Assembly: GCA_964406665.1 (NCBI GenBank)
Contig: CAYOSQ010000001.1
Coordinates: forward strand, 7,412 to 71,411
Length of the DNA stretch: 64,000 bases
Direction of reading: 5' to 3'
Origin: an uncultured Planctomycetia bacterium
GTDB lineage: Bacteria; Omnitrophota; Gorgyraeia; VGKH01; JBHPFN01
This document shows positions 3,174 through 29,345 of the stretch, piece after piece. Positions within the stretch are counted from its first letter, which is position 1. The number at the start of each line of letters is the position of its first letter. The position numbers and the translations under genes are program-made. The notes beneath the pieces were generated by a model. That model searched no databases, had not been told where the DNA came from, and saw nothing but the letters and a program-made list of their open reading frames with translations.

Positions 3174-4052
3174 TTAAAATCCTCCTGGGATTAATTCTCC
3201 TGAAGTAAACTTAATGATAATTGGGCCTGCAACAACAATCATAATTACCGGCAGAATAAAAAACAACAGTGGAAACAGAATCTTAAGAGATGCAGCAATT
3301 GCCTGCCTCTCCCCTTCTATAAAACGCCCTTCGCGGGTATCTTCAGATAAGTTCCTGAAGGCCTCTTCAACAGAAGTACCCATGCGCTCAGACTGAACAA
3401 CCGTACGCACAAAACTTCTGATATCAGGAATATCTAATCTTCTAGACATATCTTTTAAAGCATCTATTCTATTGCGGCCTACCTGAATTTCTTTAAGCAC
3501 AAGTTCAAGTTGTTCGCTAAATGCGTTTCTATCTACTTTCTCAATTACCCATTTAAGTGATGATGTAAAATCTAATCCGGCACCGATACAAAGATCAATT
3601 AAGTCTATAGTTTCTGGAAACACCCTGACTATTTCGCGCTTCTTTTGTTTTATCTTATTCATGAAAATCATGTCTGGAATAAAGAAGCCAATCGTTCCAC
3701 CCGCGAATGCATAGCCTTCTGTCTGGGTTAACAAATAAACAATAAATCCGCTGAACAATGACAAAAATATTTTAACCAACACCAATCCGGTAACATCGAG
3801 ATTGATTCTTAAAACCTCTGTTTGCATCTGAAGTTTCTTTAAATATGCCATATTGGCAATCGGCTGAGTCAAAGGAAGCAGGGGTTTCAACAATTTAGAA
3901 GAAGAAAGCTGATTAAGCCTAGATCCTTTAGAATCCAATACAGAACGCAAACGTGGTTTCTTTTGCACCTGAAGCATAGAGGTAGACATCATATAAACTG
4001 CCGTAGCAACCATAACTAAAATAGAATAATATAAAGTTGTCTCAAAATCCAT
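3174..4052 (-). CDS. tadC: Tad pilus inner-membrane platform protein TadC (type II secretion system F domain)
   Basis: T2SSF-domain signature: GLDFTSSLKWVI...QVGRNRIDALKDMSRRLDIPDIRSFVRTVVQSERMGTSVEEAFRNLSEDTR, followed by C-terminal TM helices. Confidence 0.8.
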   Translation of the reverse strand: MDFETTLYYSILVMVATAVYMMSTSMLQVQKKPRLRSVLDSKGSRLNQLSSSKLLKPLLPLTQPIANMAYLKKLQMQTEVLRINLDVTGLVLVKIFLSLFSGFIVYLLTQTEGYAFAGGTIGFFIPDMIFMNKIKQKKREIVRVFPETIDLIDLCIGAGLDFTSSLKWVIEKVDRNAFSEQLELVLKEIQVGRNRIDALKDMSRRLDIPDIRSFVRTVVQSERMGTSVEEAFRNLSEDTREGRFIEGERQAIAASLKILFPLLFFILPVIMIVVAGPIIIKFTSGELIPGGF

Positions 4053-4906
4053 TATACCCTCAATGTACTGATCTTCTTAATCAGAAATATAGCAAGTATC
4101 TGAGCTATAACTGCAGCAATAAGTAACATCCTGCCCTGCTCAGAACTCCACATAACATCAAAATGATCCGGCTGCTGCTTAGATATGAACAATGCGAAGC
4201 CAATCGGTAAAATACTCATAATGACACCTTGCATTCTTCCCTGCAGAGTAAGAGTCGCTATTTTATTTTTCAATTTTATATTGTTACGCATCGTCTCAAC
4301 AAGCCTGGAAAAAACCCTGGTTAACTCACCACCTGTCTCGCGGGCAACTAGAACAGAGCTAACCAAAAGATTTACTTCTTCAATCGGCATTCTTACCCTC
4401 AGCTTACGCATAGAATCTTCCAGGCTAACGCCCCACTTATTTTCCTTAAGGATCAAATTAAATTCCTGTGATACAGGAGGAGGCATCTCTTCACATAATA
4501 CTTCTATTGCCTGTATAAGACTCAATCCACCTTTTAATGAAGAAGAAAGAATCATCATACTATCAACTAACTGAGCCGTAAACTGCTTAAGCCTTCTTTG
4601 TTTAATAAAATTACTCGCAAAACCTGGAAAGGCTAGGCCTAAGAAAAACCCTACAATCAAACCTATTACACTTTGGAACAAAATAAAAAATGCCCCTGCA
4701 AAAATCAAGGGACATACAGAAATTAAAACTAGCTTCTTCTTTTCTAAAAAAATAAAAGAGTCTTCTAGTTTATCTACTACCTTATCTACTCTTTTTTCCT
4801 GCCAACTACCCCACTTTTTTGCAAAAGCAGGAATAATCGCTTCGACCAAAACGAAAGAAAAAATATAAGTTGCTATAAAAACTAGTAAATATATAAGTGC
4901 GTTCAT
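4052..4906 (-). CDS. tadB: Tad pilus inner-membrane platform protein TadB (T2SSF domain)
   Basis: LKGGLSLIQAIEVL...LVARETGGELTRVFSRLVETMR T2SSF motif with flanking TM helices. Its stop overlaps the tadC start. Confidence 0.8.
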   Translation of the reverse strand: MNALIYLLVFIATYIFSFVLVEAIIPAFAKKWGSWQEKRVDKVVDKLEDSFIFLEKKKLVLISVCPLIFAGAFFILFQSVIGLIVGFFLGLAFPGFASNFIKQRRLKQFTAQLVDSMMILSSSLKGGLSLIQAIEVLCEEMPPPVSQEFNLILKENKWGVSLEDSMRKLRVRMPIEEVNLLVSSVLVARETGGELTRVFSRLVETMRNNIKLKNKIATLTLQGRMQGVIMSILPIGFALFISKQQPDHFDVMWSSEQGRMLLIAAVIAQILAIFLIKKISTLRV

Positions 4907-13111: not shown

Positions 13112-13579
13112 CTAAAATTCTGGAGCTGCAATATCAAATTCACCCTGATCTAAAAATTGATCCTGCTGAATTAACATTTCGTAACCGTCACCAGTAGATG
13201 CTGTAACCCTATTCATCAATACTTCATTATCATTAGGATCAAGGAACGAGCTTTTTAAACCACCATGAGCTTCATGCGCTACTTGCTTGCGTTTCTGGGC
13301 TGTTCTGGTCCTTGTCCTGGTGTTATCAAATTCATCTCCGTCAGCAAGTTCTTCAAGTAATTCTTCTCCAGTATCAACCCTCCAGGGCTCTCCAATTCCC
13401 CAGCTTGACCAGAGCACTAAATCAGAAGTCTGATTAACCTTCTGCTGCAGGGAATTTGAAAGCGGCCTCTGAACTGTAGCAAGGACTGCCAGAACCACTA
13501 CAAACACCGACGCCCACATTATAATGCTTTGGCCTTTTCTATTTAATATTTTACCATCCATAGGAGAAAATTCCTCCAT
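13112..13579 (-). CDS. Prepilin-like protein with a variant leader (G|QSIIMW), acidic C-terminal part
   Basis: NRKGQSIIMWASVFVVVLAVLATV hydrophobic helix after a Gly-Gln processing-like site. Confidence 0.4.
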   Translation of the reverse strand: MEEFSPMDGKILNRKGQSIIMWASVFVVVLAVLATVQRPLSNSLQQKVNQTSDLVLWSSWGIGEPWRVDTGEELLEELADGDEFDNTRTRTRTAQKRKQVAHEAHGGLKSSFLDPNDNEVLMNRVTASTGDGYEMLIQQDQFLDQGEFDIAAPEF

Positions 13580-13583
13580 TTTT

Positions 13584-13910
13584 TTAATCTAGACCAGCTA
13601 ACCCGTCTACAGCTTCCCTGCGATCAAACGTAGTAGATGAATTAGAAAAAGTTAATGTAACACCGTCAGGAGCTCCGTTTACTCCCATATAACTATCTGT
13701 ATTAGTAGTAACTGTAGATTCTATTAGTGCGGTTGTATGTCTTGGGGAATATTGTGACGGGCTTATTGTATCGGCTTCCTGCTTCAGTCTTCCTGAATAT
13801 GCTCTCCTGACATAAGTCGCCATAAGTAAAAGAGCGCTGAGGACAAGCGCGATCAATACCGTATACTCTAATAACCCTTGACCTTTACAGTTTCTCATTT
13901 TTCTTAACAT
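13584..13910 (-). CDS. Flp/TadE-type prepilin (G|QGLLEY)
   Basis: CKGQGLLEYTVLIALVLSALLLMATYVRRAYSG: the class III (Tad-type) signal motif G/xxxxEY followed by a hydrophobic helix. Confidence 0.55.
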   Translation of the reverse strand: MLRKMRNCKGQGLLEYTVLIALVLSALLLMATYVRRAYSGRLKQEADTISPSQYSPRHTTALIESTVTTNTDSYMGVNGAPDGVTLTFSNSSTTFDRREAVDGLAGLD

Positions 13911-13945
13911 AAGCTTTTCCTTAAAATAGTTATTCTTAAGCTCAA

Positions 13946-14419
13946 TTAATCAATTTCACCTAAATCAAAAGGTGCTGGAAAATCTTCCCAGACGGTTGAG
14001 TTATCAACTATATCTTCAGTCCTATAGAGCTCCCCTATGGCAGAGTCTGTTTGTTTTCTAATGTCAGTATCAAATCTATTGCCAACGGAAGCTCTATAGG
14101 AATAAATACCTTTGTCCGCAACATACTGCGGAGTATAACCAAAACCATCAGGCAAAAATTCGGATATATGCCCGGCGCCCTCAGCTGTAGCAGTTTCTTC
14201 TGCTACTTCCTGATCGCCGATCATTGTCCGCGCAACTCTTTCGCTGGTGGCAGTGGGGGAAAACTGTTCCCCCATCCTTTCTGCTGCATCATTCATGCTA
14301 CCTGAAAATCCTCTTTTAACAATTGTCTGCATAAGTAGCAAAGCAGAAAGCACCACCGCCAAAACAATTGCGTACTCTAACATACTTTGAGCTTTACGTT
14401 TGCCTTTTTTAAAGGACAT
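13946..14419 (-). CDS. Flp/TadE-type prepilin (A|QSMLEY)
   Basis: KRKAQSMLEYAIVLAVVLSALLLMQTIVKRGFSG. Confidence 0.55.
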   Translation of the reverse strand: MSFKKGKRKAQSMLEYAIVLAVVLSALLLMQTIVKRGFSGSMNDAAERMGEQFSPTATSERVARTMIGDQEVAEETATAEGAGHISEFLPDGFGYTPQYVADKGIYSYRASVGNRFDTDIRKQTDSAIGELYRTEDIVDNSTVWEDFPAPFDLGEID

Positions 14420-14464
14420 CTTCTCTCCTGCTTTTCTTTTCTAAACTGCTTTTAACAATCCCTA

Positions 14465-14953
14465 TTATTCCCAAAGAGCTTCAGGATTGTCCCATTCATC
14501 ATCTAAAGCCTCATACTCAGCTGATGTATGATCTTCATGAATAGTTGAATCAGTTGTCTGCCTTGTATCTGTTGAATAACCGTGCCCTACACGAGAACTA
14601 ATGCTGTTAGCGCCTCTATCGATTGCACCTACAATGTCATAATCTGCAACTCCAGCATCAGCAGCAGCATCAGCGATCAAGTCTGTCATAAGATCGTCTG
14701 AAGAATCAATACCACCTTCTTCAACGATAATATGATCTTCACCTTCTGCCATTGCTCGTGTTTCTTGTATAACTGAATTAGAAACTGAGTATTGATCACC
14801 CATTCTTGAAGCAGCATCATTAATACCACCTGAAACACCACGCTTGACTATTGCCTGCAAAAGTAAAAACGCGGAGATGACAACTGCTAAAAGAATAGCA
14901 TATTCAATCATTGATTGTGCTCTTCTATTCTTATACAGCTTCATATTTCTCAC
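14465..14953 (-). CDS. Flp/TadE-type prepilin (A|QSMIEY), paralog of 13946-14419
   Basis: NRRAQSMIEYAILLAVVISAFLLLQAIVKRGVSGG. Confidence 0.55.
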   Translation of the reverse strand: MRNMKLYKNRRAQSMIEYAILLAVVISAFLLLQAIVKRGVSGGINDAASRMGDQYSVSNSVIQETRAMAEGEDHIIVEEGGIDSSDDLMTDLIADAAADAGVADYDIVGAIDRGANSISSRVGHGYSTDTRQTTDSTIHEDHTSAEYEALDDEWDNPEALWE

Positions 14954-14999
14954 CTTCCTTAATGTTTTATGCTTTTATTAAATAATTTAAAAATCTCTA

Positions 15000-15383
15000 C
15001 TATTCTCCCTCTTCTACTAATCTGTTAATATCAAGTGTAGTAGTTTCAGTCGCGGTCTCGTTATGCTTCATTTCCGCACCACCCTTTAACCTGATCTTCT
15101 CATCCGTATAACCGGTTTCTAAGCTAGTGGTATGGCGGACCTGCTCGCTTACTGCATAGACATCCTGCATTGTGTCAAAACCTGCTTCTTCCATAGCATC
15201 ATCTAGCTCTGAAGTACCTGCTCGCAGCATAAACTCAACTGCTCTATCCTGCTTTACGTTTATGGCGTTCTTCAATGAGACTGAAAGAGCGCCAGCGGCA
15301 ATCGCAATTACAGCGGCAAAGATTATGCCGTATTCTGCAGTCGATTGCGCCCTTTTGCTTTTAAATAATCGTCTCAAAAACAT
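15000..15383 (-). CDS. Flp/TadE-type prepilin (A|QSTAEY)
   Basis: KSKRAQSTAEYGIIFAAVIAIAAGALSVSL. Confidence 0.5.
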   Translation of the reverse strand: MFLRRLFKSKRAQSTAEYGIIFAAVIAIAAGALSVSLKNAINVKQDRAVEFMLRAGTSELDDAMEEAGFDTMQDVYAVSEQVRHTTSLETGYTDEKIRLKGGAEMKHNETATETTTLDINRLVEEGE

Positions 15384-15447
15384 GTTTTATTCGCCTCCTT
15401 AAATTACTATATATTTTATTTTCAATTTCATTGTTTTCACAATTTGC

Positions 15448-15663
15448 TTACTCTTCCTGAAATACACCCATGCCTAAGTCATCAACAGTACTTTTTAATG
15501 CTGTACCTGTTTTAGAATAGGCACCTTCGACTGATTCTTTAATTGAACCACCACCGATACCGGTAAACAAAACGGCAACAATAGCAGCAACAACCACGCC
15601 GAGAATAAGGGTATACTCCAATATACTCTGACCTGATCTTGACGCTGTTCTCATATTATTCAC
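15448..15663 (-). CDS. flp: Flp-family major pilin candidate (71 aa, G|QSILEY)
   Basis: SRSGQSILEYTLILGVVVAAIVAVLFTGIGG. Its small size and canonical G/xxxxEY motif are typical of Flp pilins. Confidence 0.6.
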   Translation of the reverse strand: MNNMRTASRSGQSILEYTLILGVVVAAIVAVLFTGIGGGSIKESVEGAYSKTGTALKSTVDDLGMGVFQEE

Positions 15664-15673
15664 CTCCCTTCCT

Positions 15674-15907
15674 TTATCTATTATATGTCATTTCTTCCTG
15701 AACACGTTTTAAATATCTATTATATGTCATTTCTTCCTGAACACGTTTTAAACGCGCATTCACGGAACGATATACATACCGATGTGTAATAATAATCCCG
15801 GCTGCGACTACAGCGAATAGTAATGTAAATTCGATAATACTCTGTGCTTTTCTGCATTTATTAAGCTTAATTAGTATCATTCTGTAATCATCACCCCCCC
15901 TGCACAC
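15674..15907 (-). CDS. Flp/TadE-type prepilin-like protein (A|QSIIEF) with a duplicated 13 aa C-terminal repeat. The true start is probably the internal Met near 15880.
   Basis: KCRKAQSIIEFTLLFAVVAAGIIITHRY. The C-terminus reads RVQEEMTYNRYLKRVQEEMTYNR, matching a 39 bp tandem DNA duplication. Confidence 0.45.
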   Translation of the reverse strand: MCRGGDDYRMILIKLNKCRKAQSIIEFTLLFAVVAAGIIITHRYVYRSVNARLKRVQEEMTYNRYLKRVQEEMTYNR

Positions 15908-16143
15908 TGAGTTACGGTTCTAAAATATTGATCGAATATTCCTCTTTCTCCTTCTCCACCTGTTGACTTACCTACATCAACCCAGAAATAAACTGCAATC
16001 AAAGCAATAATAGCAAAACTGACCAGTGCAACATATTCTAATAAAACCTGGCCGTTTCTTTTCTTTGATTTGCCTGAAATTCTTTTTAAAGACTTTTTAA
16101 AACTCATAATCAACTCTCCAAAAATAAAAACCGGATTACTCAA
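15877..16143 (-). CDS. Flp/TadE-type prepilin (G|QVLLEY), the first gene of the pilin array
   Basis: KKRNGQVLLEYVALVSFAIIALIAVYFWV. Confidence 0.5.
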   Translation of the reverse strand: MSNPVFIFGELIMSFKKSLKRISGKSKKRNGQVLLEYVALVSFAIIALIAVYFWVDVGKSTGGEGERGIFDQYFRTVTQCAGGVMITE

Positions 16144-18953: not shown

Positions 18954-19295
18954 CTACTCGAAGCGCAGCTCATCATCAATCTGAGTCTGGGTTTGGGATA
19001 TTTTTTTTGCAGGTAACTCAACAACCGAATGCGCCTTAAGATAAATTCTGCTTATCTTACCGGGCGACATATCTTCTCTTAATCCAATAACTTTGTTTTT
19101 GCTATCTATAAAAACTGCATCCATATTAAAGCGCATAAAAAAGGTGTGGATAGAATTGCAGCGTCGGATAATAAGGGCTTCGTTTGCTTCTAGCGATTGC
19201 TTGCCCAGAAGACCTTTTGTCCTTGAAAAAAAAGTATCCGCAACTACTACCTTATCTGCTAATAGCGCGTTGCGGGTTTGATTGAAAATTTTCAT
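18954..19295 (-). CDS. DUF192 (COG1430) family protein
   Basis: 113 aa ORF. The FFSRTKGLLGKQSLEANEALIIRRCNSIHTFFMRFNMDAVFID pattern is typical of DUF192. Confidence 0.55.
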   Translation of the reverse strand: MKIFNQTRNALLADKVVVADTFFSRTKGLLGKQSLEANEALIIRRCNSIHTFFMRFNMDAVFIDSKNKVIGLREDMSPGKISRIYLKAHSVVELPAKKISQTQTQIDDELRFE

Positions 19296-19303
19296 GAAAT
19301 AAT

Positions 19304-21457
19304 TTACGGCTTGAAAACTTCTTCAGGGATAATTATGCCACGTGTCTTAAGCTCAGCATAGAACGAAGGAATATGCCCAGTAGGCTTAAACTCACCAAGC
19401 ACCTTACCTTTTTCATCGACTCCGGTCTGATAAAAAGCGAATATATCCTTTAAGCCGATGTGCATTTCATCAAGCATCCCTGTTATCTCAGTAACCTGAA
19501 GCACTTTTCTCGAACCATCTGAAAGTCTTGCGGTATGAACTATGACATGAACAGCAGATGCAATCATTTCTCTAATTGCCCTGATGGGCAACTCGATACC
19601 AGACATAAGTATCATTGAGTCCAGACGTGTTAAAACATCATGTGTGGAGTTAGCATGAACTGTGGTCATGGATCCGTCATGGCCTGTATTCATTGCCTGA
19701 AGCATATCTAACGTTTCAATCCCGCGACATTCTCCAATGAGTATTCTATCCGGACGCATTCTCAAAGAGTTTCTAAAAAGATCTCTAATAATAACTGCAC
19801 CCTTGCCTTCAATGTTCGGCGGACGCGATTCAAGCCTTACCCAATGATCCTGGGTTAATTTTAACTCTGCTGCGTCCTCGATAGTAACAATGCGTTCACT
19901 GCTGGGAACGAAAGTGGAGAGAACATTTAATACAGTTGTTTTTCCGCTTCCCGTACCTCCGGAAACTATTATGTTCTTGCGAGAAAGTACACATGCTTTT
20001 ATAAACTCACCCATGGGGCTACTTAGTGAATCTAAATCAACAAGCTCTTCGACAGTAAAACGCTCCTTGCGAAATTTTCTAATAGTTAAGGTAGGCCCTG
20101 TTAATGCCAGCGGAGGGATGATAGCATTAACGCGTGAACCGTCAGGAAGACGTGCATCAACCATGGGAACAGACTCGTCTATTCTTCTGCCTATAGGAGC
20201 AATTATACGCTCTATGGTTGTCTTTACATGAGCATTAGAGGTAAATTTCTTTGGGGTCAACTCCAGCTTTCCTTTCCGCTCAACATAGACTTCATTCCTG
20301 TTGTTAACCATAATGTCTGTTATCTCTGAATCTGAGAGTAGCGCCTCTAAAGGACCTAGGCCTAAAGCCTCATCCAATATATCTTCCACAAGAGCACGGC
20401 GCGCTTCCCCAGAAGAAATAAATTTTCCTGATTCCTCGGCAAGCAAGTTTGAAACTAAATTACCAGCCTTTTTTCTCAACTCCTCTTTGGCTGCATCAGA
20501 AAAAGCTTTTATATCGAGCTTCTTAAGATTTAACTCTGCTATAAGACGCTTATGTATACGGGTTTTTAACATAATCATCTTATCTATTTCACTAACTACA
20601 GTAGGTGAAGCTACGGGTTCAGCCATCCCAATTTTTTGCCAAAATTTATTTATCTTACCAGACGTCTTGTCTCCTTTTTCAGCAGCGCTGAAATCTTGAT
20701 GCTCAATAAATATCGAACTGTCGCTTATAAGTTTATTCGCGAAACTATCTATAGTTTTACTTACTTTGCTGCGAGCATTAACCATGCTAACCGGTAAGCC
20801 TCTGTTTACCGCCTCCATAACAACTTTGCCCTCTGATGGAATCTGGGTAATAATTTCACTTTTTAAAGCTGCCTGTATTTCATGTAAACCAATACTACTT
20901 AAACTTTCTGATCTGTTTAAAACAACTTTGATCATATTAACCGGGATAAGCATTGATTGCAGGGTATTTATTAAAACCTTAACCTGATTAATTGAAAGCA
21001 CGTCGGGGTTTGCTACTAAAAGAACAAGGTTTGCCTCATTTAAAATGCTTAACATTAAATCAGTAAAGCCACGTCCTGCATCAACAATGATATAATCATA
21101 GTTGGGTCTTAGAATATCGAACACGGCTTTTATATGAGATGGTTCAACCTGATGGGCCTGTTGCGGCCTGGCAATACCTGACAAAAAATCCATCCCGGAA
21201 GAATGCTTTGCTACAAAATCTCCAAGAACTATATCTTTTTTTGCGGCTTTAATCTCCGTAATAATATCAAGCATCGTCTTTTTAGGAGATAGGTCTAACA
21301 TTCTTCCCATGTCCCCGACTACTTGATAATCTAAATCGGCAAGAAGGGCTCTGACGTTTCTATCCTTAGTTAATGCAGCAGCTAAATTAGCCGCGAGAAA
21401 CGTTTTACCAACGCCTCCTTTTATGCTAAGAATAACGATTGTTTTTGCCAACGCCAT
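19304..21457 (-). CDS. tadZ-tadA: Fused Tad pilus ATPase: an N-terminal TadZ/CpaE-like ParA/MinD-family domain joined to a C-terminal TadA/CpaF secretion ATPase
   Basis: The N-terminal deviant Walker A ILSIKGGVGKTFLAANLAAAL (ParA/MinD-like, as in CpaE/TadZ) is followed by a C-terminal Walker A SGGTGSGKTT. The latter carries surrounding T2SS-E/CpaF-type motifs and the CpaF-like helical N-domain MIMLKTRIHKRLIAELNL. Confidence 0.8.
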   Translation of the reverse strand: MALAKTIVILSIKGGVGKTFLAANLAAALTKDRNVRALLADLDYQVVGDMGRMLDLSPKKTMLDIITEIKAAKKDIVLGDFVAKHSSGMDFLSGIARPQQAHQVEPSHIKAVFDILRPNYDYIIVDAGRGFTDLMLSILNEANLVLLVANPDVLSINQVKVLINTLQSMLIPVNMIKVVLNRSESLSSIGLHEIQAALKSEIITQIPSEGKVVMEAVNRGLPVSMVNARSKVSKTIDSFANKLISDSSIFIEHQDFSAAEKGDKTSGKINKFWQKIGMAEPVASPTVVSEIDKMIMLKTRIHKRLIAELNLKKLDIKAFSDAAKEELRKKAGNLVSNLLAEESGKFISSGEARRALVEDILDEALGLGPLEALLSDSEITDIMVNNRNEVYVERKGKLELTPKKFTSNAHVKTTIERIIAPIGRRIDESVPMVDARLPDGSRVNAIIPPLALTGPTLTIRKFRKERFTVEELVDLDSLSSPMGEFIKACVLSRKNIIVSGGTGSGKTTVLNVLSTFVPSSERIVTIEDAAELKLTQDHWVRLESRPPNIEGKGAVIIRDLFRNSLRMRPDRILIGECRGIETLDMLQAMNTGHDGSMTTVHANSTHDVLTRLDSMILMSGIELPIRAIREMIASAVHVIVHTARLSDGSRKVLQVTEITGMLDEMHIGLKDIFAFYQTGVDEKGKVLGEFKPTGHIPSFYAELKTRGIIIPEEVFKP

Positions 21458-21471: not shown

Positions 21472-23097
21472 TTAATTATTGTTTCTTCGAAAAGCAATTG
21501 GAACTTCTACACGAAGCTCATCTGCCCGCAACTGATAAGGAAAGGAAGGATAAGGATCCTCATTTTTTACTACCCCTAACGCAGCCTCATCCAATACCGC
21601 GTGTCCAGAAGATTCCTGGACGACAACTTCTTGCAATGAACCATTATCTGAAATAAGCAGGCTTAACCTTACAGTGCCTGACCAGCCTAATTCTTCTGCG
21701 TCTGCAGGATAGTATGCTGCGTTTAATATTTTAGTTTGCACCATCTGAACATATTCATTAAGCAGTCGCTGAACATCTTCTTGAGAAAACTCAACTGGTT
21801 TCTCTTCTTTTGACTCTTGAGCCTGAGCTTTTTTAATTTCTGAAACTATCGTTGGAGTAAGGGTGATAAATAACTCTACATTTCCTCTTTCTCCCTGACC
21901 GCCACCCATTTTAGTTTCTTTCTTTCTGAACAATGCTCCAATAATCGGAATGTCGCCTAAGAAAGCATTCTTTCTTATATCTTCTTCTAATTTTTCCTTA
22001 ATAATTCCACCGATAGCTAATGTCTGACCATTATCCAAATAAATCTCGGTTGAAATATTACGCTTGGTTAAAGGAAAGGCTTTAGCGGATGGAGCATTGG
22101 GGTCTCCGATAGTAATCGCGTCTCCGATTTCACTTACTTCAACATTAAGCCCAACATGAATTCTACCATCATCAATTGTGGGCTGAATATTAAGTTTGAT
22201 TCCATATTCCTTATACTCGATACTAGTTGAAGAAGCTCCACCTGATTGAACAGCGGTGCTGAACATCGGCTTCTCTCCGCCTACCAACAGCTCTGCTTCT
22301 TTTCCACTTGAGCATGTCAATCTCGGACGAGAAAGAATTCTCGCCTTACCTTCCTGCTCTAAGAAATCAACTGTGGCAGTAAGTGCATTTCTTGTCCAGT
22401 CGGATACATGGAATAATGCACTAAACCCTGTTACTGCGTTTGCAGTAGGGCCAGATGCTTCCAAAACAGAAAACTGTCCCGGCAGAGTAAACCCTAACGT
22501 CTTAGTTGCATCTCTATCCAATTCAAGAACCTGAACTTCTATATCAATAACGCCTTCGTCTTTAACTTGAAGGAGATCTATAGTCTGAGGGAATAATTCA
22601 CCTAATGCCAGCTCAATTAATTCTCTTTCCTCCTCGGTGGGAACATCTCCCAAAATAAGAATTCTACCTTCTTCGTGGTTAGCCTTTGTGTAAACATTAT
22701 CAAGCTTAAGCGGTTTCAACAAATTGTCAACGCGCCTTTTGGTGTTAGTCATGTCTGCAGTTAATACTCTAATCTCAAATGAGCGTTCTCCTAATTCATC
22801 CCAGACCACCAACGTTGTAGAACCTGCCCCCTTACCAGCTATGCTAACTGCATCTTCAGATACCTTGGTAATATCTGCAATCTGCGGATTACCAATAGCT
22901 ACTCTAGTAGGAGATTTTATGGGAAGAACTTTTATCTCCCCAATATATACTATTTCTTCGTTGTTTAAATATTCTTCAAAAGATATATCCTCAGCTGAGA
23001 TGATGACAGGTGAAACAAATAATAAAGAAATTAAAAAACAGCTGATGATATTTCTTCTGAAATGTTTCATTGTGTGATTCTTATATAAGCTCTTCAT
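21472..23097 (-). CDS. rcpA: Flp pilus secretin RcpA/CpaC with an additional C-terminal TonB-C-like domain
   Basis: Secretin C-domain FLGDIPIIGALFRKKE...VELFITLTPTIV. The last roughly 100 aa (AAYYPADAEELGWSGTVRLSLLISDNGSLQEVVVQESSGHAVLDEAALGVVKNEDPYPSFP...VEVPIAFR) match the TonB C-terminal domain pattern. Confidence 0.75.
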   Translation of the reverse strand: MKSLYKNHTMKHFRRNIISCFLISLLFVSPVIISAEDISFEEYLNNEEIVYIGEIKVLPIKSPTRVAIGNPQIADITKVSEDAVSIAGKGAGSTTLVVWDELGERSFEIRVLTADMTNTKRRVDNLLKPLKLDNVYTKANHEEGRILILGDVPTEEERELIELALGELFPQTIDLLQVKDEGVIDIEVQVLELDRDATKTLGFTLPGQFSVLEASGPTANAVTGFSALFHVSDWTRNALTATVDFLEQEGKARILSRPRLTCSSGKEAELLVGGEKPMFSTAVQSGGASSTSIEYKEYGIKLNIQPTIDDGRIHVGLNVEVSEIGDAITIGDPNAPSAKAFPLTKRNISTEIYLDNGQTLAIGGIIKEKLEEDIRKNAFLGDIPIIGALFRKKETKMGGGQGERGNVELFITLTPTIVSEIKKAQAQESKEEKPVEFSQEDVQRLLNEYVQMVQTKILNAAYYPADAEELGWSGTVRLSLLISDNGSLQEVVVQESSGHAVLDEAALGVVKNEDPYPSFPYQLRADELRVEVPIAFRRNNN

Positions 23098-23105: not shown

Positions 23106-24041
23106 TTATTGAGATAAGGGAACAACCTCTAATTCAAGCCCGCGAATAATCTCTACATCTTTACCTGAATAGATAGTTTCCCGAGGAGTGTCAATAATTT
23201 GTTTTGGCTTTCTCTTGGGTGCCTTACGAGGCATAATCTGATCAAGTAAAGCTTCTAAGTTAGCCGGTTCTATATCCTCAACTATTTCCTTGTCTTCGGG
23301 TGAACGCAATACCATCTGAATCTCACCTTGTTCGGTAACAAAAGCTAGCATGCTGGATTCTTGAGGAGTTAAGGCAACGGTGATAATCTTTGCTGGCTTA
23401 GTGACCTTTTTCCTCTTTTTTCCATCTTCAGCATATTTTTGAGGATCTTCATATCCTATATCTGTACCCACAGCAAGAACTAAAACATTTTGAAACACAG
23501 GATATACGAGCTCTTGCTTTTTCTTACTTTTTTTCTTGTCCTTTGTTTCTTCAACATAAGGGATAGTACATAAAATATCTACGTGGTCTCCGGGCTTTAA
23601 CATCCCACCTACAGATTGAATCTCTTTAACCTGAACTGCAATTGCTCTTTTACCTGCAGGCGTTGCCACTGATAGAGATGATGCCCTGGTTTTCCTTGGT
23701 CTTTTGGATGCTATTAACATACCTTTCAATATAGGTTCGCCTCTCTCGATATCTTTTCCGGCTGTCTTACCTACAACCTCGCCGAAAGAAGTAGCGATCC
23801 TAGGATCAAGCTGCTCTTTATAAATCATCACTACACCGAGCATCTCTGAGGTTATTGGAATCCCTGCAGAAATTTTTTGTTCAGCAACCAATATTCTTTC
23901 TTTTTGTTCCTGCAATTTCTCTGATGCCTGCCTAGCCCTTATAGCCAATGCTTGTGTTTGTTGATCAAGATAAATTTTTATCAATACAACAGCTAAAATC
24001 GCTAATACGCCACCGACTATCAAACTTATTCGTTTAGACAC
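23106..24041 (-). CDS. cpaB: Flp pilus assembly protein CpaB/RcpC (N-terminal TM anchor, SAF-like domain)
   Basis: RISLIVGGVLAILAVVLIKIY anchor and a GDHVDILCT motif typical of CpaB. Located immediately upstream of the secretin gene. Confidence 0.65.
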   Translation of the reverse strand: MSKRISLIVGGVLAILAVVLIKIYLDQQTQALAIRARQASEKLQEQKERILVAEQKISAGIPITSEMLGVVMIYKEQLDPRIATSFGEVVGKTAGKDIERGEPILKGMLIASKRPRKTRASSLSVATPAGKRAIAVQVKEIQSVGGMLKPGDHVDILCTIPYVEETKDKKKSKKKQELVYPVFQNVLVLAVGTDIGYEDPQKYAEDGKKRKKVTKPAKIITVALTPQESSMLAFVTEQGEIQMVLRSPEDKEIVEDIEPANLEALLDQIMPRKAPKRKPKQIIDTPRETIYSGKDVEIIRGLELEVVPLSQ

Positions 24042-24970
24042 TATTGTATCTCCCCTTCGTAATATTCGATTTTTGCCTTGTTAGAAAGATCGGCGATAAG
24101 CTGCTCAATTGCCGCCTGCTGCTTTACAAAAGTAAGTTCTCTTTTAATATCATCCCAGATATCAGACAATTCTTTTTGAGCACCGCCGCGTTTCTCCTCA
24201 AGCTTCACTATATAATATCCTTCCGGACCTTTAAAATAATTACTTGTTTTACCAACTTCCAAAGTATCTGAAAAAGCTTCAACATCAAACTGTGGAGATT
24301 TTACTCCTCTTTGTATAAAACCCAAATCTCCGCCCTTATCTTTACTGGCTGCCTTCGAACGTTCTACGGCCAAAGCAGCAAAATCGACTCCTTGATATAT
24401 TTGAATAATAACACCCCTTGCTTCCTCCTCGGTATTAACCACTATTTCGCGCAGATGTCTTTCTTCTGGATCTTTTAACTGTTCTTTATACGTTTCATAA
24501 AAATTATTTATTTCATCATATGTTACCACTACACTCTCGGCTTCTTTTCTCACCAACTCCATAACCAGAAGATCTGCTTTGGTTTTCTCTAAAATTCTTT
24601 GTATCTCAGGATTACTATCCAGCCCTCTGCTCTGTGCTTCTTGATAAAGCAAAGAACGACGCACCATTTCATTCTTTAAATATTCAACTTTCTGCTCGGG
24701 TGTGGTAATTTTTACTTCAGGCCTGTCTTCTGGCACTAAGGCATTAAAACTATCAACCTCTTCGTTAAGATCTTCTAGTACGATGGGATAATTGTTTACT
24801 TTTGCAACAACTGTGCCGGTTACCATGGGAATCTTGACCGACTTCGTTGCAGAAGTACCCGTTTTAGGTGGGCTTAAAAACGGAATTTGTTCACAACCGA
24901 TAAAATAAAAAGATATAATAACTAAGCATACAGCTACCACTAATCCTTTTAAAGACTTAAGGTTACTCAT
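24041..24970 (-). CDS. Parvulin-type peptidyl-prolyl cis-trans isomerase (SurA/PrsA-like), probable lipoprotein
   Basis: PpiC-type domain GGDLGFIQRGVKSPQFDVEAFSDTLEVGKTSNYFKGPEGYYIVKLEEKRG. Signal peptide ending in Cys (FIGC). Confidence 0.6.
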   Translation of the reverse strand: MSNLKSLKGLVVAVCLVIISFYFIGCEQIPFLSPPKTGTSATKSVKIPMVTGTVVAKVNNYPIVLEDLNEEVDSFNALVPEDRPEVKITTPEQKVEYLKNEMVRRSLLYQEAQSRGLDSNPEIQRILEKTKADLLVMELVRKEAESVVVTYDEINNFYETYKEQLKDPEERHLREIVVNTEEEARGVIIQIYQGVDFAALAVERSKAASKDKGGDLGFIQRGVKSPQFDVEAFSDTLEVGKTSNYFKGPEGYYIVKLEEKRGGAQKELSDIWDDIKRELTFVKQQAAIEQLIADLSNKAKIEYYEGEIQ

Positions 24971-25136: not shown

Positions 25137-26840
25137 TTATTCTACATTAGTCAACCACTGTATTCTTCCAATTGTAGCTCCAGAGCTTTCAGGGATAATA
25201 TCAAAATTTTCAAATTCTATTGCACCTTGTAAATATGGAATCTGGCCTGCATACTGTGGCACCTCTGAACGAATGAGAAGATTCCCCCGACTACCATCGC
25301 ATGCAAAATTAGCATCACAGTTTGAATAACACAATGATGACATCACTACACTGTCGCATAACCTATGACATTCGGATCTATATGCCAAATAGTTAGCAAT
25401 GCCTGGTCTTACGTTCAGCCAATGATAAATCTCCTGAAAATCTAAACACTCTTGCATGCACTGTCCGGGATTATCCAGAGCACAAAAATCTCTACACTCA
25501 TAATAACCGTCAACGGTTCCCAACTCTTCATTGTCTAAACATTTCCGAATACACTCTGTATCGCATTTGTCTACAGCACAACATTCTTGTACGCATCCAG
25601 ATTTTCCATATGCAAACTGATATTCTCTGGCACACCAACGCATACAATGATCAGGATCACACCTACGATGACATTCAGAATCAGGATGCTCTGGCTGTAA
25701 AATTTCTAAACAACTATTAAAACATTGATCTCTACACGCAATTCCCTTGCAATCTTTATCAATATTGCTGCACATTTTATAACAAGCAGAACCTTCCTCT
25801 AAATCACAATCGGCAACACAGCGAACCGAATCTGTAGGGTCATGTTCTTGTTGCAGGCAAAGCGTTTGACCAAGCAATGGTTCGTCATCAACTTGAAAAA
25901 AGTACTCAGGAGAATCATTAACACCGTTACCGGCAACATGGGCAAAGTGTTCAATAAATCCCGTCTGCAAATCCCAGGGAATATTATATTCCCCATAACA
26001 CGGTATACCGTCTCCGGCTACACAGGGAAATTCTCCTGTTTCGTCAAAGCCCTCGCCATCATCTACCCATTCTTCAAGCAACAATTCTGTTTTTCCCAAA
26101 GTAATATATATATCTTCACTTTTGTAAGAAAGATCCTCTCCCTCTGGGGAGTCATTTGGACCTTCAAGTTTATGATATTTAGCAGAATAACTTATATCAT
26201 ATTTTCCAGCAGGAAGACCTAAATTTGCAAAATAGATAATATTCTTACCTCCCATAAGCAGCTCCCCATCTTCTCCTATAGTTGCATCACCAACTTCAAT
26301 GTTCATAGGGGCAACATAGCTGTATTTTACTGAGCATTGTACTGTCTTTAATGTTGAGCCTCCTAATATAGGAACTGTTGCAGATGCAGTTAAAAGATAA
26401 ATGTAGTCTCCTGGGATAGGAGGTTTCCCTGCTCCAGAGCCGTAAGTGTCTACGCTGATTAATTGAGCAGTGTTTTTATTAATAGATTCAAGCTGTTCAG
26501 GTGTACATTCGAAGTGTCCGTGCCCGGTCCCACCAGTTTCCCCAGAACCTCTATCGGTTTCTGGCAAAGACCACTCAAACACTTCACCAATATCTTTCTG
26601 CTCTATGGGAAAATGCTTAGGGAATTCACCTGTGTCAAAGTAAACTTTTATCTCTTGGATTTTTTCTCTGGCAGCTGATTCTGCTAACCAGAGTGCTTGG
26701 GTGGTACCAATCTGTCTTTTAGTAGAAGATATTTCTCTTACCGAAGACATGAATACTCCGGTAATGATAGCACCGAAGAGAATACATAAACCTAAAGCAG
26801 TAATCAGAGCAAAGCTTTTTTTATTATTTGGTTTATTCAT
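25137..26840 (-). CDS. PilX_N-domain minor-pilin-like protein with a Cys-rich C-terminal domain (567 aa)
   Basis: The N-terminal KKSFALITALGLCILFGAIITGVFMSSVREISSTKRQIGTTQALWLAESAAREKIQEI matches the PilX N-terminal pattern. The C-terminus has ECHRRCDPDHCMRWCA and the tail LLIRSEVPQY..PYLQGAIEF...RIQWLTNV, shared with 26854-28734 and 31260-33038. Confidence 0.55.
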   Translation of the reverse strand: MNKPNNKKSFALITALGLCILFGAIITGVFMSSVREISSTKRQIGTTQALWLAESAAREKIQEIKVYFDTGEFPKHFPIEQKDIGEVFEWSLPETDRGSGETGGTGHGHFECTPEQLESINKNTAQLISVDTYGSGAGKPPIPGDYIYLLTASATVPILGGSTLKTVQCSVKYSYVAPMNIEVGDATIGEDGELLMGGKNIIYFANLGLPAGKYDISYSAKYHKLEGPNDSPEGEDLSYKSEDIYITLGKTELLLEEWVDDGEGFDETGEFPCVAGDGIPCYGEYNIPWDLQTGFIEHFAHVAGNGVNDSPEYFFQVDDEPLLGQTLCLQQEHDPTDSVRCVADCDLEEGSACYKMCSNIDKDCKGIACRDQCFNSCLEILQPEHPDSECHRRCDPDHCMRWCAREYQFAYGKSGCVQECCAVDKCDTECIRKCLDNEELGTVDGYYECRDFCALDNPGQCMQECLDFQEIYHWLNVRPGIANYLAYRSECHRLCDSVVMSSLCYSNCDANFACDGSRGNLLIRSEVPQYAGQIPYLQGAIEFENFDIIPESSGATIGRIQWLTNVE

Positions 26841-26853
26841 TAATTGCCACTAT

Positions 26854-28734: not shown

Positions 28735-29345
28735 ACTCCGTCTATTGATTTGAAAGAAATCGATGTATCAATATTGGGAACCTTCTTCTCCAAAGTCAAT
28801 TCAAAAAATAAAGTCTCTCCATCGTCATATTGTTGGTTTACCGCTATTGTTTCAGAAGATGAACAAGTAAAAGAAACAACATTGTCAGTTATAACCTGAG
28901 ACACACTTACCACGCCAGAATTATCTGTTCGCATTAAACATCCTGTATTAGAGTTAACGCTATACACAATATTCGTATTAGCGGGATAGTATTCGAGAAC
29001 ATAATCACAATCGCCCCCTTCTTCTCCACCTTCACAACTACTAATCCAAAGACTTCCGTCATTATTTATATCCTTAGGAAGTGCAGCTGAAATGACACAG
29101 TTATTTACAGAGTTATGGTTAAACATTAACTTCTGCAGACCGTTTGGTTTTGCATTTCTTAGTTCTGACACTAATATGTTGGTTGCTCTATTGGCTTTTT
29201 GTTGCAACTCTACAGCAGAAAGCTCTGAAAAACTATATCTCATGGTAACAGCAAGAGCTGTAGCTCCAATGCCTGCAACTATGCTGAAAATTAAAGCTAC
29301 CATTAATACTTCTGGTAAGGTAAAACCAATATTTCTTAGCTTCAT
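28707..29345 (-). CDS. Type IVa/T2SS-type minor prepilin (PilW/GspJ-like), leader G|FTLPEV
   Basis: RNIGFTLPEVLMVALIFSIVAGIG is a classical prepilin cleavage/methylation-type N-terminus with Glu at +5. Confidence 0.6.
   Translation of the reverse strand: MKLRNIGFTLPEVLMVALIFSIVAGIGATALAVTMRYSFSELSAVELQQKANRATNILVSELRNAKPNGLQKLMFNHNSVNNCVISAALPKDINNDGSLWISSCEGGEEGGDCDYVLEYYPANTNIVYSVNSNTGCLMRTDNSGVVSVSQVITDNVVSFTCSSSETIAVNQQYDDGETLFFELTLEKKVPNIDTSISFKSIDGVWPINSLQE

What the first reader, a model, noticed from the sequence alone, without database searches (positions are those of the whole stretch)
21472..23097. Secretin with a C-terminal TonB-C-like domain
After the conserved secretin C-domain (FLGDIPIIGALF...ELFITLTPTIV), about 110 extra residues carry a pattern characteristic of TonB C-terminal domains (YP.DA...G.SGTV.L.L.I...G.L..V.V..SSG...LD.AAL..V....PYP.FP). 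A TonB_C module on a secretin could contact periplasmic partners or peptidoglycan, or couple the channel to an energised inner-membrane complex. I am not aware of this fusion in described Tad secretins.
Basis: partly seen in the sequence, partly recalled or inferred. Interest (0 to 1): 0.7.

Follow-up and report, generated by a model that had tools for sequence, protein, structure and literature searches.

The report
Tad pilus secretin with TonB-like tail
The outer-membrane channel protein of a Tad pilus machine in an uncultivated Omnitrophota bacterium really does end in a TonB-type domain, and this tail is conserved on two kinds of pilus channel across the phylum, where it most likely anchors or assembles the channel and does not supply energy.

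Summary
Window 21472-23097, on the minus strand, is one uninterrupted 541-aa ORF. It encodes a signal peptide, a CpaC/RcpA-type N domain, a Secretin domain (residues 245-418), a variable 20-30 residue linker and a TonB_C domain (Pfam 461-537, E 9.5e-17). AlphaFold models the tail at pLDDT 92-98, and its best PDB matches are all TonB/TolA C-terminal domains.

It is neither chance nor a frameshift. All 120 best homologues listed, out of 1093 hits, carry the same three domains. The operon lipoprotein PPIase-CpaB-secretin::TonB_C-TadZA-DUF192 is syntenic in 12 other loci.

- A second Omnitrophota secretin family, of PilQ/GspD type, carries a diverged version of the same tail in 119 of 120 members.
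- Some Tad secretins carry two tandem tails.
- Sampled secretins from other phyla lack the tail; in most of the nine such Tad loci examined, a small lipoprotein gene (CpaD, OmpA or unknown) follows the secretin.

The protein has no TonB membrane anchor, and no ExbBD genes lie in the window, so it is not a TonB. My inference is that the tail is a built-in tethered anchoring or assembly module that replaces partners such as TadD or CpaD. I found no paper describing it. I rate it a new variant of a known kind, of moderate interest.

The parts
21472..23097 (-). Complete gene for the 541-aa secretin::TonB_C fusion (CpaC/RcpA-type Tad secretin); the stop codon is at 21472-21474
   Evidence: Single ORF. 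Pfam and NCBIfam domain hits. All 120 best homologues listed share the architecture.
22993..23097 (-). N-terminal signal peptide, about residues 1-35 (n-region KHFRRN, hydrophobic core, ...ISA/ED). It is not a TonB-type membrane anchor and has no usable lipobox.
   Evidence: Read directly from the sequence. This region is only 19% identical across homologues.
22765..22950 (-). T2SS-T3SS_pil_N domain (residues 50-111), the N-terminal beta domain typical of CpaC/RcpA secretins
   Evidence: Pfam E 1.3e-13. AF2 pLDDT 95-97.
22516..22752 (-). Second periplasmic alpha/beta ring-type domain (about residues 116-194)
   Evidence: AF2 secondary structure H116-130, E135-152, H155-171, E172-194, with pLDDT of about 86-97.
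21844..22365 (-). Secretin C-domain (residues 245-418), the outer-membrane barrel and gate
   Evidence: Pfam PF00263 E 1.6e-36. PDB sequence hits: A. caldus secretin 8jvb at 1.3e-32 and P. aeruginosa RcpA 8odn at 2.2e-24. Foldseek hits to secretins.
21784..21843 (-). Flexible, low-complexity linker (residues 419-438), rich in E, A, K, P and S
   Evidence: pLDDT below 50 at residues 424-434. 14% identity, and 33-89 residues between the two domains across 68 homologues. Composition.
21487..21783 (-). TonB/TolA-type C-terminal domain: leading helix 439-460 plus the alpha-beta-beta-alpha-beta core 461-537 (the Pfam TonB_C match corresponds to 21487-21717)
   Evidence: Pfam E 9.5e-17. Profile against PDB: H. 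pylori TonB-CTD 6sly at E 6.7e-13. AF2 tail model pLDDT 92, pTM 0.79. Foldseek TM 0.75 to 6sly, and the top 25 hits are all TonB/TolA-fold domains.
23106..24041 (-). CpaB/RcpC (SAF + RcpC domains), the periplasmic alignment-ring protein, immediately upstream
   Evidence: Pfam RcpC 4.4e-26; NCBIfam pilus_cpaB 3.6e-44. Syntenic in the related loci.
24041..24970 (-). SurA/PrsA-like PPIase with a lipobox (…FIGC), first gene of the conserved core operon. It is a candidate chaperone or partner of the secretin.
   Evidence: Pfam Rotamase and SurA_N hits. Lipobox read from the sequence. Detected in 11 of the 12 related loci; the lipobox could be read in the seven complete orthologues aligned and in L083.
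19304..21457 (-). Fused TadZ (MinD/ParA-like) and TadA (CpaF ATPase), 717 aa, starting 14 nt downstream of the secretin stop. No lipoprotein gene lies between them.
   Evidence: Pfam CbiA, ParA and T2SSE hits; NCBIfam TadA family 2.4e-99. 50-70% identical in all related loci.
18954..19295 (-). DUF192 protein, a conserved member of the operon
   Evidence: Pfam 2.7e-17. Syntenic in 11 loci.
3174..4906 (-). TadB and TadC platform proteins (two T2SSF-domain genes) at the far end of the roughly 27 kb tad locus
   Evidence: Pfam T2SSF 7e-20 and 2.5e-14.
13112..16143 (-). Tandem array of about nine small genes, of which about seven show the Flp-type motif (…G/AQS-x-x-EY… N-termini)
   Evidence: N-terminal sequences. 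Weak Flp_Fap and Class_IIIsignal hits.

Best explanation
The gene encodes the outer-membrane secretin of a Tad (Flp) pilus machine of an Omnitrophota bacterium. In this phylum the short C-terminal tail of the secretin has been replaced. In Pseudomonas that tail plugs into the pilotin TadD. Here a folded TonB/TolA-type domain hangs on a flexible tether of 20-30 residues in this protein, and up to about 90 residues between the two domains in homologues.

A secretin is a ring of about 13-15 subunits, and its C-terminus emerges on the periplasmic side, outside the barrel. The assembled channel would therefore carry a crown of 13-15 such domains, or twice that number in the variants with two tandem copies.

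I propose that these domains act passively. They would dock onto a cell-envelope partner: the peptidoglycan layer, a wall-associated protein of the Pal, OmpA or TolB kind, or an outer-membrane lipoprotein such as the operon's own PPIase. Docking would probably be by beta-strand augmentation, as TonB and TolA domains do. This would target, stabilise and anchor the channel. In other bacteria separate lipoproteins encoded next to the secretin do this job: TadD, CpaD, OmpA-like proteins, or AMIN/TsaP for type IVa pili.

The protein is not an energy transducer.

Shown here: the domain identity, the conservation, the architecture, the synteny, and the absence of TonB-specific parts. Inferred: the topology, the crown, the passive docking and the partner.
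For: Domain identity:
- HMM hits.
- Profile match to solved TonB C-terminal domains.
- Confident fold model whose PDB matches are exclusively TonB/TolA-fold domains.

Selection on the tail:
- It is 46% identical on average, with the invariant YP, G, S and D motifs.
- It ends 2-4 residues before the C-terminus in 67 of 68 sequences.
- The linker is 14% identical, E/A/K/P/S-rich and variable in length. That is what a tether looks like, and not what a fixed staple looks like.

Generality:
- A separate PilQ/GspD-type secretin family of Omnitrophota, sitting in a PilB-PilC-PilMN operon, carries a diverged copy at its extreme C-terminus in 119 of 120 members.
- Tad secretins with two tandem copies exist in the same operon context.
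- An Omnitrophota protein with a signal peptide carries at least six tandem copies.
- A domain used as a repeat module on different channels points to a generic binding or anchoring role.

Positional analogy:
- In 7 of 9 sampled Tad loci from other phyla, a small lipoprotein gene follows the secretin: one OmpA-family, two CpaD and four unknown. Those secretins have short tails without TonB_C.
- In the window and in the related loci where the junction could be read, TadZA follows the secretin directly, and no TPR lipoprotein of the TadD kind lies in the locus.

Literature:
- In Caulobacter the lipoprotein CpaD, encoded just after cpaC, is modelled as a belt around the barrel that anchors it to peptidoglycan (PMC13170226).
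- Omnitrophota have complete peptidoglycan synthesis (bioRxiv 10.64898/2026.06.07.730766).
Against: - No partner has been identified, and no binding was or could be tested here.
- The monomer AF2 model says nothing about where the tail sits in the oligomer (pTM 0.44).
- Peptidoglycan binding by TonB-fold domains is not firmly established; I recall it from the literature and did not check it here.
- The PilQ-type tails have lost the YP and SSG motifs and are only 22% identical to the Tad-type tails. The two families may therefore not share one partner or one mechanism.
- The conserved motif after the lipid-modified cysteine of the PPIase, C-[DE]-x-[IM]-x-F-L, is absent in at least one locus. 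That candidate partner is weak.
- Absence of TadD was judged only from the locus and the 64 kb window, not from the whole genome.
Confidence: 0.55

Rival explanations
1. Inter-subunit staple. The TonB_C domain behaves like the S-domain of GspD-type secretins. It reaches over to the neighbouring subunit, or swaps a strand with the neighbour's tail, and forms a closed ring that stabilises the multimer without any outside partner.
For: The domain sits exactly where S-domains sit, at the C-terminus after the secretin domain. It is found on two secretin classes, so it could serve a need intrinsic to secretins. From my own knowledge, not tested here: TonB C-terminal domains can form strand-swapped dimers in crystals.
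Against: The linker is long, disordered and unconserved, and the distance between the two domains ranges from 33 to 89 residues. Variants with two tandem copies, and secretin-free proteins with 2-6 copies, exist. Neither feature is expected of a precisely fitting staple.
Confidence: 0.2
2. Energy or force coupling. The tail links the channel to an energised inner-membrane complex of the ExbBD, TolQR or Poc type, or captures a TonB-box-like strand of an energised partner, so that proton-motive force gates or assembles the secretin.
For: The YP motif and the canonical TonB_C core are invariant in the Tad-type tails. In P. aeruginosa the ExbBD-TonB-like PocAB-TonB3 complex is needed for type IVa pili, and a TonB3-PilQ N0 contact has been hypothesised (PMC5285504).
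Against: The protein lacks what makes TonB an energy transducer. Its N-terminus is a cleavable signal peptide, not the membrane anchor that couples to ExbB/ExbD. It has no proline-rich rod. The domain is tethered to the outer membrane, not the inner one. No ExbB, ExbD, TolQ, TolR or TonB-dependent receptor gene was found in the 64 kb window or in the annotated flanks of related loci. The PilQ-type tails have lost the YP motif.
Confidence: 0.08
3. Regulatory or substrate-related receptor. The tails bind pilins, the CpaB ring or a secreted or prey-directed factor, and so control gate opening or recruitment of the inner-membrane platform.
For: A tether of 20-30 residues could reach the periplasmic N domains and the CpaB ring. 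RcpC-RcpA contacts are themselves made by beta-strand completion (PMC12307814).
Against: The same kind of tail occurs on a PilQ-type secretin that works with a different alignment complex (PilMNOP) and different pilins. That argues against a Tad-specific ligand. There is no direct evidence.
Confidence: 0.07
4. Artefact: a frameshift, a misassembly or a chance motif joins a secretin gene to a separate TonB-like gene.
For: None found.
Against: The reading frame is continuous. An identical protein exists in an independent ENA record, and all 120 best homologues listed (47-63% identity), out of 1093 hits, have the same architecture. Related loci from different assemblies show the same fused ORF.
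Confidence: 0.01

Closest known systems
RcpA/CpaC, the secretin of Tad (Flp) pili (P. aeruginosa RcpA, PDB 8ODN; C. crescentus CpaC)
   Same: It has the same N-terminal pil_N domain and Secretin C-domain. It has the same operon neighbours: CpaB/RcpC upstream, TadZ/TadA downstream, and TadB/C, Flp pilins and TadE/G-like genes in the locus. RcpA is among the best solved-structure matches.
   Different: RcpA ends in a short disordered tail whose last four residues bind the TPR lipoprotein pilotin TadD (PMC10499894). CpaC works with the lipoprotein CpaD, encoded just downstream (PMC13170226). Here the tail is a folded domain of about 100 residues of TonB/TolA type on a flexible linker. No TadD- or CpaD-like gene is in the locus, and TadZA follows directly.
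TonB (and the HasB and FusB paralogues), C-terminal domain
   Same: It has the same fold and sequence family. The best match is the H. pylori TonB-CTD 6SLY/5LW8, including its extra leading helix. The YP motif and the G..V, SSG and LD.AA motifs are conserved.
   Different: TonB is anchored in the inner membrane by an N-terminal helix that couples to ExbB/ExbD, and it spans the periplasm on a proline-rich rod. This protein has a cleavable signal peptide and a secretin body, and the domain is tethered from the outer-membrane side. The NCBI name 'TonB family protein' is therefore misleading.
CpaD and OmpA-like lipoproteins, and TadD and PilF pilotins: trans-acting outer-membrane partners of secretins
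   Same: The position in the operon is the same, immediately after the secretin coding sequence. So is the presumed place in the machine, around the barrel on its periplasmic side. The proposed role in anchoring and assembly is also the same.
   Different: The folds are unrelated (OmpA-like or TPR against TonB/TolA). Those partners are separate lipoproteins, whereas here the module is fused in cis and is not lipidated.
S-domain of GspD/PulD/InvG-type secretins
   Same: It is a C-terminal extension after the secretin domain, on the outside of the barrel.
   Different: S-domains are short helical segments that bind a pilotin and the neighbouring subunit. This is an independently folding globular domain on a long variable tether, and it is sometimes duplicated.
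PocAB-TonB3 of P. aeruginosa, needed for type IVa pilus assembly and placement
   Same: It is a precedent for a functional link between a TonB-family C-terminal domain and a pilus secretin machine (PMC5285504).
   Different: TonB3 is a separate protein anchored in the inner membrane and working with ExbBD homologues. Its mechanism is unresolved, and no fusion is involved.

Membership tests
Tad/Flp pilus secretin (RcpA/CpaC) | C-terminal Secretin domain (PF00263) | tested here: met
   Residues 245-418, E 1.6e-36. RcpA 8odn matches at E 2.2e-24.
Tad/Flp pilus secretin (RcpA/CpaC) | CpaC-type N-terminal domain (T2SS-T3SS_pil_N) in place of the N0/STN and Secretin_N domains of GspD/PilQ | tested here: met
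   PF13629, residues 50-111, E 1.3e-13. No STN or Secretin_N hit.
Tad/Flp pilus secretin (RcpA/CpaC) | Encoded in a tad operon next to CpaB/RcpC and TadZ/TadA, with TadB/C and Flp pilins | tested here: met
   The synteny is conserved in the related loci.
Tad/Flp pilus secretin (RcpA/CpaC) | Short C-terminal tail that binds a TadD-type pilotin | tested here: not met
   The tail is a TonB_C domain. No TPR lipoprotein lies in the locus. Sampled proteobacterial and Nitrospira homologues do have short tails ending in hydrophobic motifs. This feature varies among Tad systems: Kil lacks TadD and Caulobacter uses CpaD. Failing it makes this a variant and does not exclude membership.
Tad/Flp pilus secretin (RcpA/CpaC) | Forms a 13-14-mer outer-membrane channel through which the Flp pilus passes | not testable with these tools
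   This needs biochemistry or cryo-EM.
TonB energy transducer | TonB_C C-terminal domain | tested here: met
   PF03544 E 9.5e-17; TIGR01352 E 1.1e-14. Fold match.
TonB energy transducer | N-terminal inner-membrane anchor that couples to ExbB/ExbD | tested here: not met
   The N-terminus is a Sec-type signal peptide followed by secretin domains.
TonB energy transducer | Proline-rich periplasm-spanning spacer | tested here: not met
   The linker is about 33 residues on average and rich in E, A, K and S, with about 10% Pro. It connects to the outer-membrane barrel, not to the inner membrane.
TonB energy transducer | Works with ExbB/ExbD and TonB-dependent receptors | tested here: inconclusive
   None are encoded in the 64 kb window or in the annotated flanks of related loci. 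The rest of the genome was not available.
TonB energy transducer | Binds a TonB-box strand by beta-augmentation | not testable with these tools
TolA C-terminal domain | TolA domain III fold, at the end of a long helical domain II anchored in the inner membrane, working with TolQR, TolB and Pal | tested here: not met
   The fold is related, but matches are weaker than to TonB (Foldseek ranks 7-11; tolA_full 25 bits against a cut-off of 59). There is no inner-membrane anchor and no TolQR neighbour.

The most novel reading that the evidence does not exclude
Omnitrophota may have dispensed with trans-acting pilotins and wall anchors altogether. They would use a TonB/TolA-fold domain as a universal built-in assembly and anchoring device for all their secretins.

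A bolder reading is also not excluded. The tail could work as an inverted TonB: a domain tethered to the outer membrane that captures a TonB-box-like strand of a periplasmic or inner-membrane partner. Force from pilus retraction, or from an energised complex, would then be transmitted to the secretin gate. That would be a new way of coupling an outer-membrane channel to the rest of the envelope in ultra-small predatory or parasitic bacteria.
Probability: 0.12. Interest if true: 0.8.

Novelty: new variant of a known kind. Interest (0 to 1): 0.55.

Why it matters
How secretins reach the outer membrane, assemble and stay fixed to the wall is solved differently in each system, by pilotins, AMIN domains, TsaP or CpaD, and it is still being worked out for Tad pili. 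A phylum-wide secretin with the accessory function apparently built in, using a fold otherwise known from energy transduction, has several uses:
- It gives a simple one-polypeptide model for pilotin-independent secretin biogenesis.
- It widens the known uses of the TonB/TolA fold.
- It corrects a systematic misannotation ('TonB family protein').
- It concerns the very machines, Tad and type IVa pili, thought to mediate attachment of Omnitrophota nanobacteria to their hosts or prey.

It is not a new kind of system. Both domains and the pilus machine are well known.

Tried and rejected
- **Plus-strand reading.** The plus-strand translation of the given coordinates is full of stops. The gene is on the minus strand.
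- **Frameshift or separate ORF.** Rejected.
- **Literature.** Searches for Omnitrophota + Tad + TonB, secretin + 'TonB C-terminal domain', and TonB_C + secretin found no description of the fusion. The only joint occurrences concern the STN domain shared by secretins and TonB-dependent receptors. A search for Velamenicoccus archaeovorus + secretin was swamped by papers on the hormone secretin.
- **Distribution outside Omnitrophota.** It is a sample, not a census. Ten Tad-type tail-bearing secretins were recovered, plus one PilQ-type secretin (L015) with a weak tail. Two of the ten are labelled 'uncultured Planctomycetales', but they have the full Omnitrophota operon and are probably mislabelled or close relatives. 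I could not settle this.
- **Partner hunting.** The operon's lipoprotein PPIase has a conserved motif right after the lipid-modified cysteine, C-[DE]-x-[IM]-x-F-L, in most orthologues. The motif is missing in L083, and no such motif was found in the proteins of the PilQ-type operon. I keep it only as a weak lead; it may be a lipoprotein-sorting signal.
- **TadD candidate.** The only TPR protein in the window (37041-38213) has a membrane anchor, not a lipobox. It belongs to the neighbouring FIST-kinase-GGDEF operon and is not conserved there in L001. Rejected as a TadD equivalent.
- **Monomer model.** The full-length AF2 monomer cannot place the tail relative to the barrel (pTM 0.44).
- **E. 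coli TonB reference.** I use it only as an illustration and draw no conclusion from it.
Full report
**1. What is at the coordinates**

The interval 21472-23097 is an ORF, but on the minus strand. The plus-strand translation is full of stops. The minus strand reads through 541 codons from an ATG to a stop at 21472-21474.

Pfam finds three domains well above the curated cut-offs:
- T2SS-T3SS_pil_N, residues 50-111, E 1.3e-13.
- Secretin, residues 245-418, E 1.6e-36.
- TonB_C, residues 461-537, E 9.5e-17, 61.7 bits against a gathering score of 24.6, with a weaker overlapping TonB_2 hit.

NCBIfam agrees: tonB_Cterm at E 1.1e-14, with partial matches to GspD, PilQ and other secretin models over the C-domain only.

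**2. Not chance, not a frameshift**

A search of the 5.8-billion-protein collection gave 1093 hits at E below 1e-5. One protein is identical to the query. All 120 best hits (47-63% identity, 503-642 aa) carry the same three Pfam domains. NCBI calls them 'TonB family protein [Candidatus Omnitrophota bacterium]' and JGI calls them 'pilus assembly protein CpaC'.

In an alignment of 68 members:
- The TonB_C part is 46% identical on average, the same as the N-terminal domains.
- Y463, P464 (the TonB 'YP' motif), G474, G486, S497, D503 and P533 are invariant.
- The domain ends 2-4 residues before the C-terminus in 67 of 68 sequences.
- The segment between the secretin domain and the tail is only 14% identical and rich in E, A, K, P and S, and the two domains lie 33 to 89 residues apart.

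This is the signature of a selected domain on a flexible tether.

**3. Fold**

AlphaFold2 with this alignment gives pLDDT 95-98 over residues 440-535. The elements are a leading helix at 439-460, then helix, strand, strand, helix, strand. Residues 424-434 fall below pLDDT 50.

The tail modelled on its own has pLDDT 92 and pTM 0.79. Its 25 best Foldseek matches in the PDB are all C-terminal domains of TonB, HasB, FusB or TolA. The best is the H. pylori TonB-CTD (6SLY, TM 0.75), which has the same extra leading helix. A sequence profile of the tails finds the same entry at E 6.7e-13.

The body of the protein matches solved secretins. The best are an Acidithiobacillus secretin (8JVB, 1.3e-32) and P. 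aeruginosa RcpA (8ODN, 2.2e-24).

**4. Context in the window**

The gene lies in a tad locus of about 27 kb, all on the minus strand. In the direction of transcription it reads:
- Two pilin-like genes with type IV (GFxxxE-type) N-termini, and two large paralogous proteins (25137-29782).
- A SurA/PrsA-like PPIase with a lipobox (24041-24970).
- CpaB/RcpC (23106-24041).
- The secretin::TonB_C gene.
- A fused TadZ-TadA ATPase starting 14 nt after the stop (19304-21457).
- A DUF192 protein.
- A 799-aa protein with an N-terminal helix-turn-helix.
- A tandem array of about nine small genes, about seven of them Flp-type pilins (13112-16143).
- TadE/G-like and unknown exported proteins.
- TadB and TadC (3174-4906), then a PsbP-like protein.

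No TPR lipoprotein of the TadD kind and no CpaD- or OmpA-like gene is in the locus. No ExbB, ExbD, TolQ, TolR or TonB-dependent receptor gene is anywhere in the 64 kb window.

**5. Related loci**

The core order PPIase-CpaB-secretin::TonB_C-TadZA-DUF192-(HTH protein) recurs in 12 other loci: L001, L003-L012 and L083. Secretin identity in these loci falls as low as 30%. Nine of the 12 are labelled Omnitrophota or Omnitrophica. Two are labelled 'uncultured Planctomycetales' but have the whole Omnitrophota operon, so I regard the label as doubtful.

These came from Alpha- and Gammaproteobacteria, Myxococcota, Planctomycetota, Nitrospira and others. The 14 whose C-termini I read have short tails without TonB_C. 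Several end in hydrophobic motifs such as GFILE, GYVME or GHVMPH.

Nine such Tad loci could be examined. In seven, the gene right after the secretin encodes a small lipoprotein: one OmpA-family, two CpaD and four unknown. In the other two, TadZ/CpaE follows directly.

**6.

(a) One locus of the scan (L015) holds a different Omnitrophota secretin, with STN/N0, Secretin_N and Secretin domains, that is, PilQ/GspD-type. It has a weak C-terminal TonB_C hit (E 0.0025, below the cut-off).
- Among its 120 closest relatives (603-688 aa), 38 have a precomputed TonB_C hit and 12 more have TonB_2 only.
- An HMM built from the Tad-type tails hits 119 of the 120 at the extreme C-terminus.
- One member sits in a PilB(MshE)-PilC-PilMN-...-secretin operon.
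- The two kinds of tail are only 22% identical. The PilQ-type has lost the YP and SSG motifs. Both share a P-[YF]-P-x-F-P motif before the last strand that is not seen in the H. pylori TonB reference. This hints at a common secretin-associated lineage.

(b) A search of 1.84 billion cluster representatives with the tail profile gave these results:
- Among the 147 new top hits, 63 contain a secretin domain.
- Thirteen of those carry two tandem TonB_C domains. One example is the 1045-aa P0266, in the same PPIase-RcpC-secretin-TadZA operon.
- The other 84 are fragments or secretin-free proteins with 2-6 tandem TonB_C domains. One is an Omnitrophota protein of 1183 aa with a signal peptide and at least six copies.

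In this phylum the TonB fold is evidently used as a modular, repeatable periplasmic domain.

**7. What it most likely does**

Two facts from the literature frame the question.
- In P. aeruginosa the last four residues of RcpA insert into the groove of the lipoprotein pilotin TadD, and this is essential for secretin assembly (PMC10499894).
- In C. crescentus the lipoprotein CpaD, encoded immediately after cpaC, is predicted to have an OmpA-like fold. It is modelled as a spoke-like belt around the secretin barrel that anchors it to peptidoglycan (PMC13170226).

The Omnitrophota secretins have neither partner nearby. They carry a folded TonB/TolA-type domain at exactly that place in the polypeptide and in the operon. 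Omnitrophota have a complete peptidoglycan pathway.

I therefore propose that the tails form a crown of tethered docking domains around the periplasmic side of the channel. Each would bind an envelope partner passively: peptidoglycan, a wall-associated protein, or a lipoprotein. The crown would fix and perhaps help assemble the secretin, as a built-in substitute for TadD, CpaD, AMIN or TsaP.

Four observations support this: the long variable tether, the occasional duplication, the presence on two unrelated pilus systems, and the existence of multi-copy proteins. All of them fit a generic binding module better than a precisely fitted staple or a Tad-specific ligand.

This is inference.

**8. 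What it is not**

It is not a TonB in the functional sense.
- The N-terminus is a cleavable signal peptide, not the inner-membrane anchor that couples to ExbB/ExbD.
- There is no proline-rich rod.
- The domain hangs from the outer-membrane side.
- No ExbBD genes are nearby.

The PocAB-TonB3 requirement for type IVa pili in P. aeruginosa (PMC5285504) keeps it from being absurd. I give it 0.08.

**9. Novelty and score**

The Omnitrophota Tad system has been described and is expressed in V. archaeovorus. The key paper does not mention TonB or the secretin's architecture (PMC10066038). A 2026 preprint notes 'TonB-domain content' next to giant genes without recognising a secretin. None of my searches found a description of a secretin-TonB_C fusion.

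The proteins are abundant in databases under automatic names. I rate this a new variant of a known kind, with interest 0.55. It is a real, conserved and unexpected domain combination with a testable role in secretin biogenesis, but it is built from well-known parts and has no demonstrated mechanism yet.

Noticed in passing
L015:4612-6540 and proteins P0121-P0240; operon example L082:1613-9875: A second Omnitrophota secretin family, PilQ/GspD/MshL-type (STN + Secretin_N + Secretin), also ends in a diverged TonB_C-like domain in 119 of 120 members. It lacks the YP and SSG motifs. One member lies in a PilB(MshE)-PilC-PilMN operon.
   Followed up: yes
P0041, P0245, P0248, P0251, P0252, P0265, P0266 (L083:2584-5721): Some Tad-type secretins of the same operon type carry two tandem TonB_C domains (642-1091 aa).
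   Followed up: partly
P0388 (1183 aa; same cluster as the partial P0241, which NCBI labels Omnitrophota), P0242 (KSB1), P0280 (L084:6001-8181): Proteins with 2-6 or more tandem TonB_C domains and no secretin exist. P0388 has a signal peptide. They occur in an Omnitrophota-labelled cluster and in other phyla. One combines FG-GAP repeats with three TonB_C domains, next to a gene with a Por_Secre_tail domain.
   Followed up: partly
window 19304-21457 (-): TadZ (MinD/ParA-like) and TadA (CpaF ATPase) are fused into one 717-aa protein. The fusion is conserved at 50-70% identity in all related loci. The same kind of TadZA fusion was recently described in Bdellovibrio bacteriovorus, where it binds the polarity factor RomR (bioRxiv 10.64898/2026.07.08.737194).
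   Followed up: partly
window 24041-24970 (-): A SurA/PrsA-like PPIase with a lipobox is the first gene of the conserved core operon. Most orthologues share the motif C-[DE]-x-[IM]-x-F-L right after the lipid-modified cysteine (absent in L083). It may be a dedicated secretin chaperone, a docking strand or a sorting signal.
   Followed up: partly
window 16391-18790 (-) and 18954-19295 (-): A DUF192 protein and a 799-aa protein with an N-terminal helix-turn-helix and no other Pfam hit follow TadZA. DUF192 is found in 11 of the 12 related loci and the HTH protein in most of them. Their role in a pilus operon is unexplained.
   Followed up: no
window 5228-7498 vs 9925-12123, and 25137-26840 vs 26854-28734 (all -): Two pairs of large paralogous genes with no Pfam hits lie inside the tad locus. 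Their 5' ends are nearly identical (DNA repeats of 183-300 nt at 81-95% identity, with identical N-terminal peptides). This suggests recent duplication or gene conversion of pilin-like or minor-pilin-like proteins.
   Followed up: partly
window 28707-29782 (-): Pilin-like genes with a type IV/T2SS-style N-terminus (GFTLPEV..., N_methyl hit) sit at the head of a locus whose other pilins are Flp-type. No prepilin peptidase (Peptidase_A24) was detected among the ORFs of 100 aa or more that were scanned.
   Followed up: no
window 33325-38213 (+), 49110-49490 (-): A FIST sensor, a GAF histidine kinase, a response regulator with a GGDEF domain and a TPR protein are encoded divergently, a few kb beyond the head of the tad locus. 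The first three are also next to it in L001, and the FIST and kinase genes in L004 and L006. A PilZ-domain protein lies further on. This hints at c-di-GMP control of the pilus.
   Followed up: partly
window 43828-45186 (-) and 55333-56835 (-): Two proteins end in a Peptidase_S74 domain (the intramolecular chaperone of endosialidase, or tail-fibre type). The first is wedged between the genes for pyruvate:ferredoxin oxidoreductase subunits.
   Followed up: no
window 2638-3171 (-): A PsbP-like protein with an N-terminal membrane or signal segment is encoded right after TadC, where canonical loci often have tadD. It is a possible accessory factor.
   Followed up: no
window 39018-39923 (-): A CsgG-like protein with FlgT-like C-terminal matches and an N-terminal signal sequence, with no curli genes nearby.
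   Followed up: no
L011, L012 (CAZYOA010000004.1, CAZAOD010000009.1): Two MAGs labelled 'uncultured Planctomycetales bacterium' carry the complete Omnitrophota-type operon, including the TonB_C secretin. Either the taxonomy is wrong or these are the only members seen outside the phylum.
   Followed up: partly
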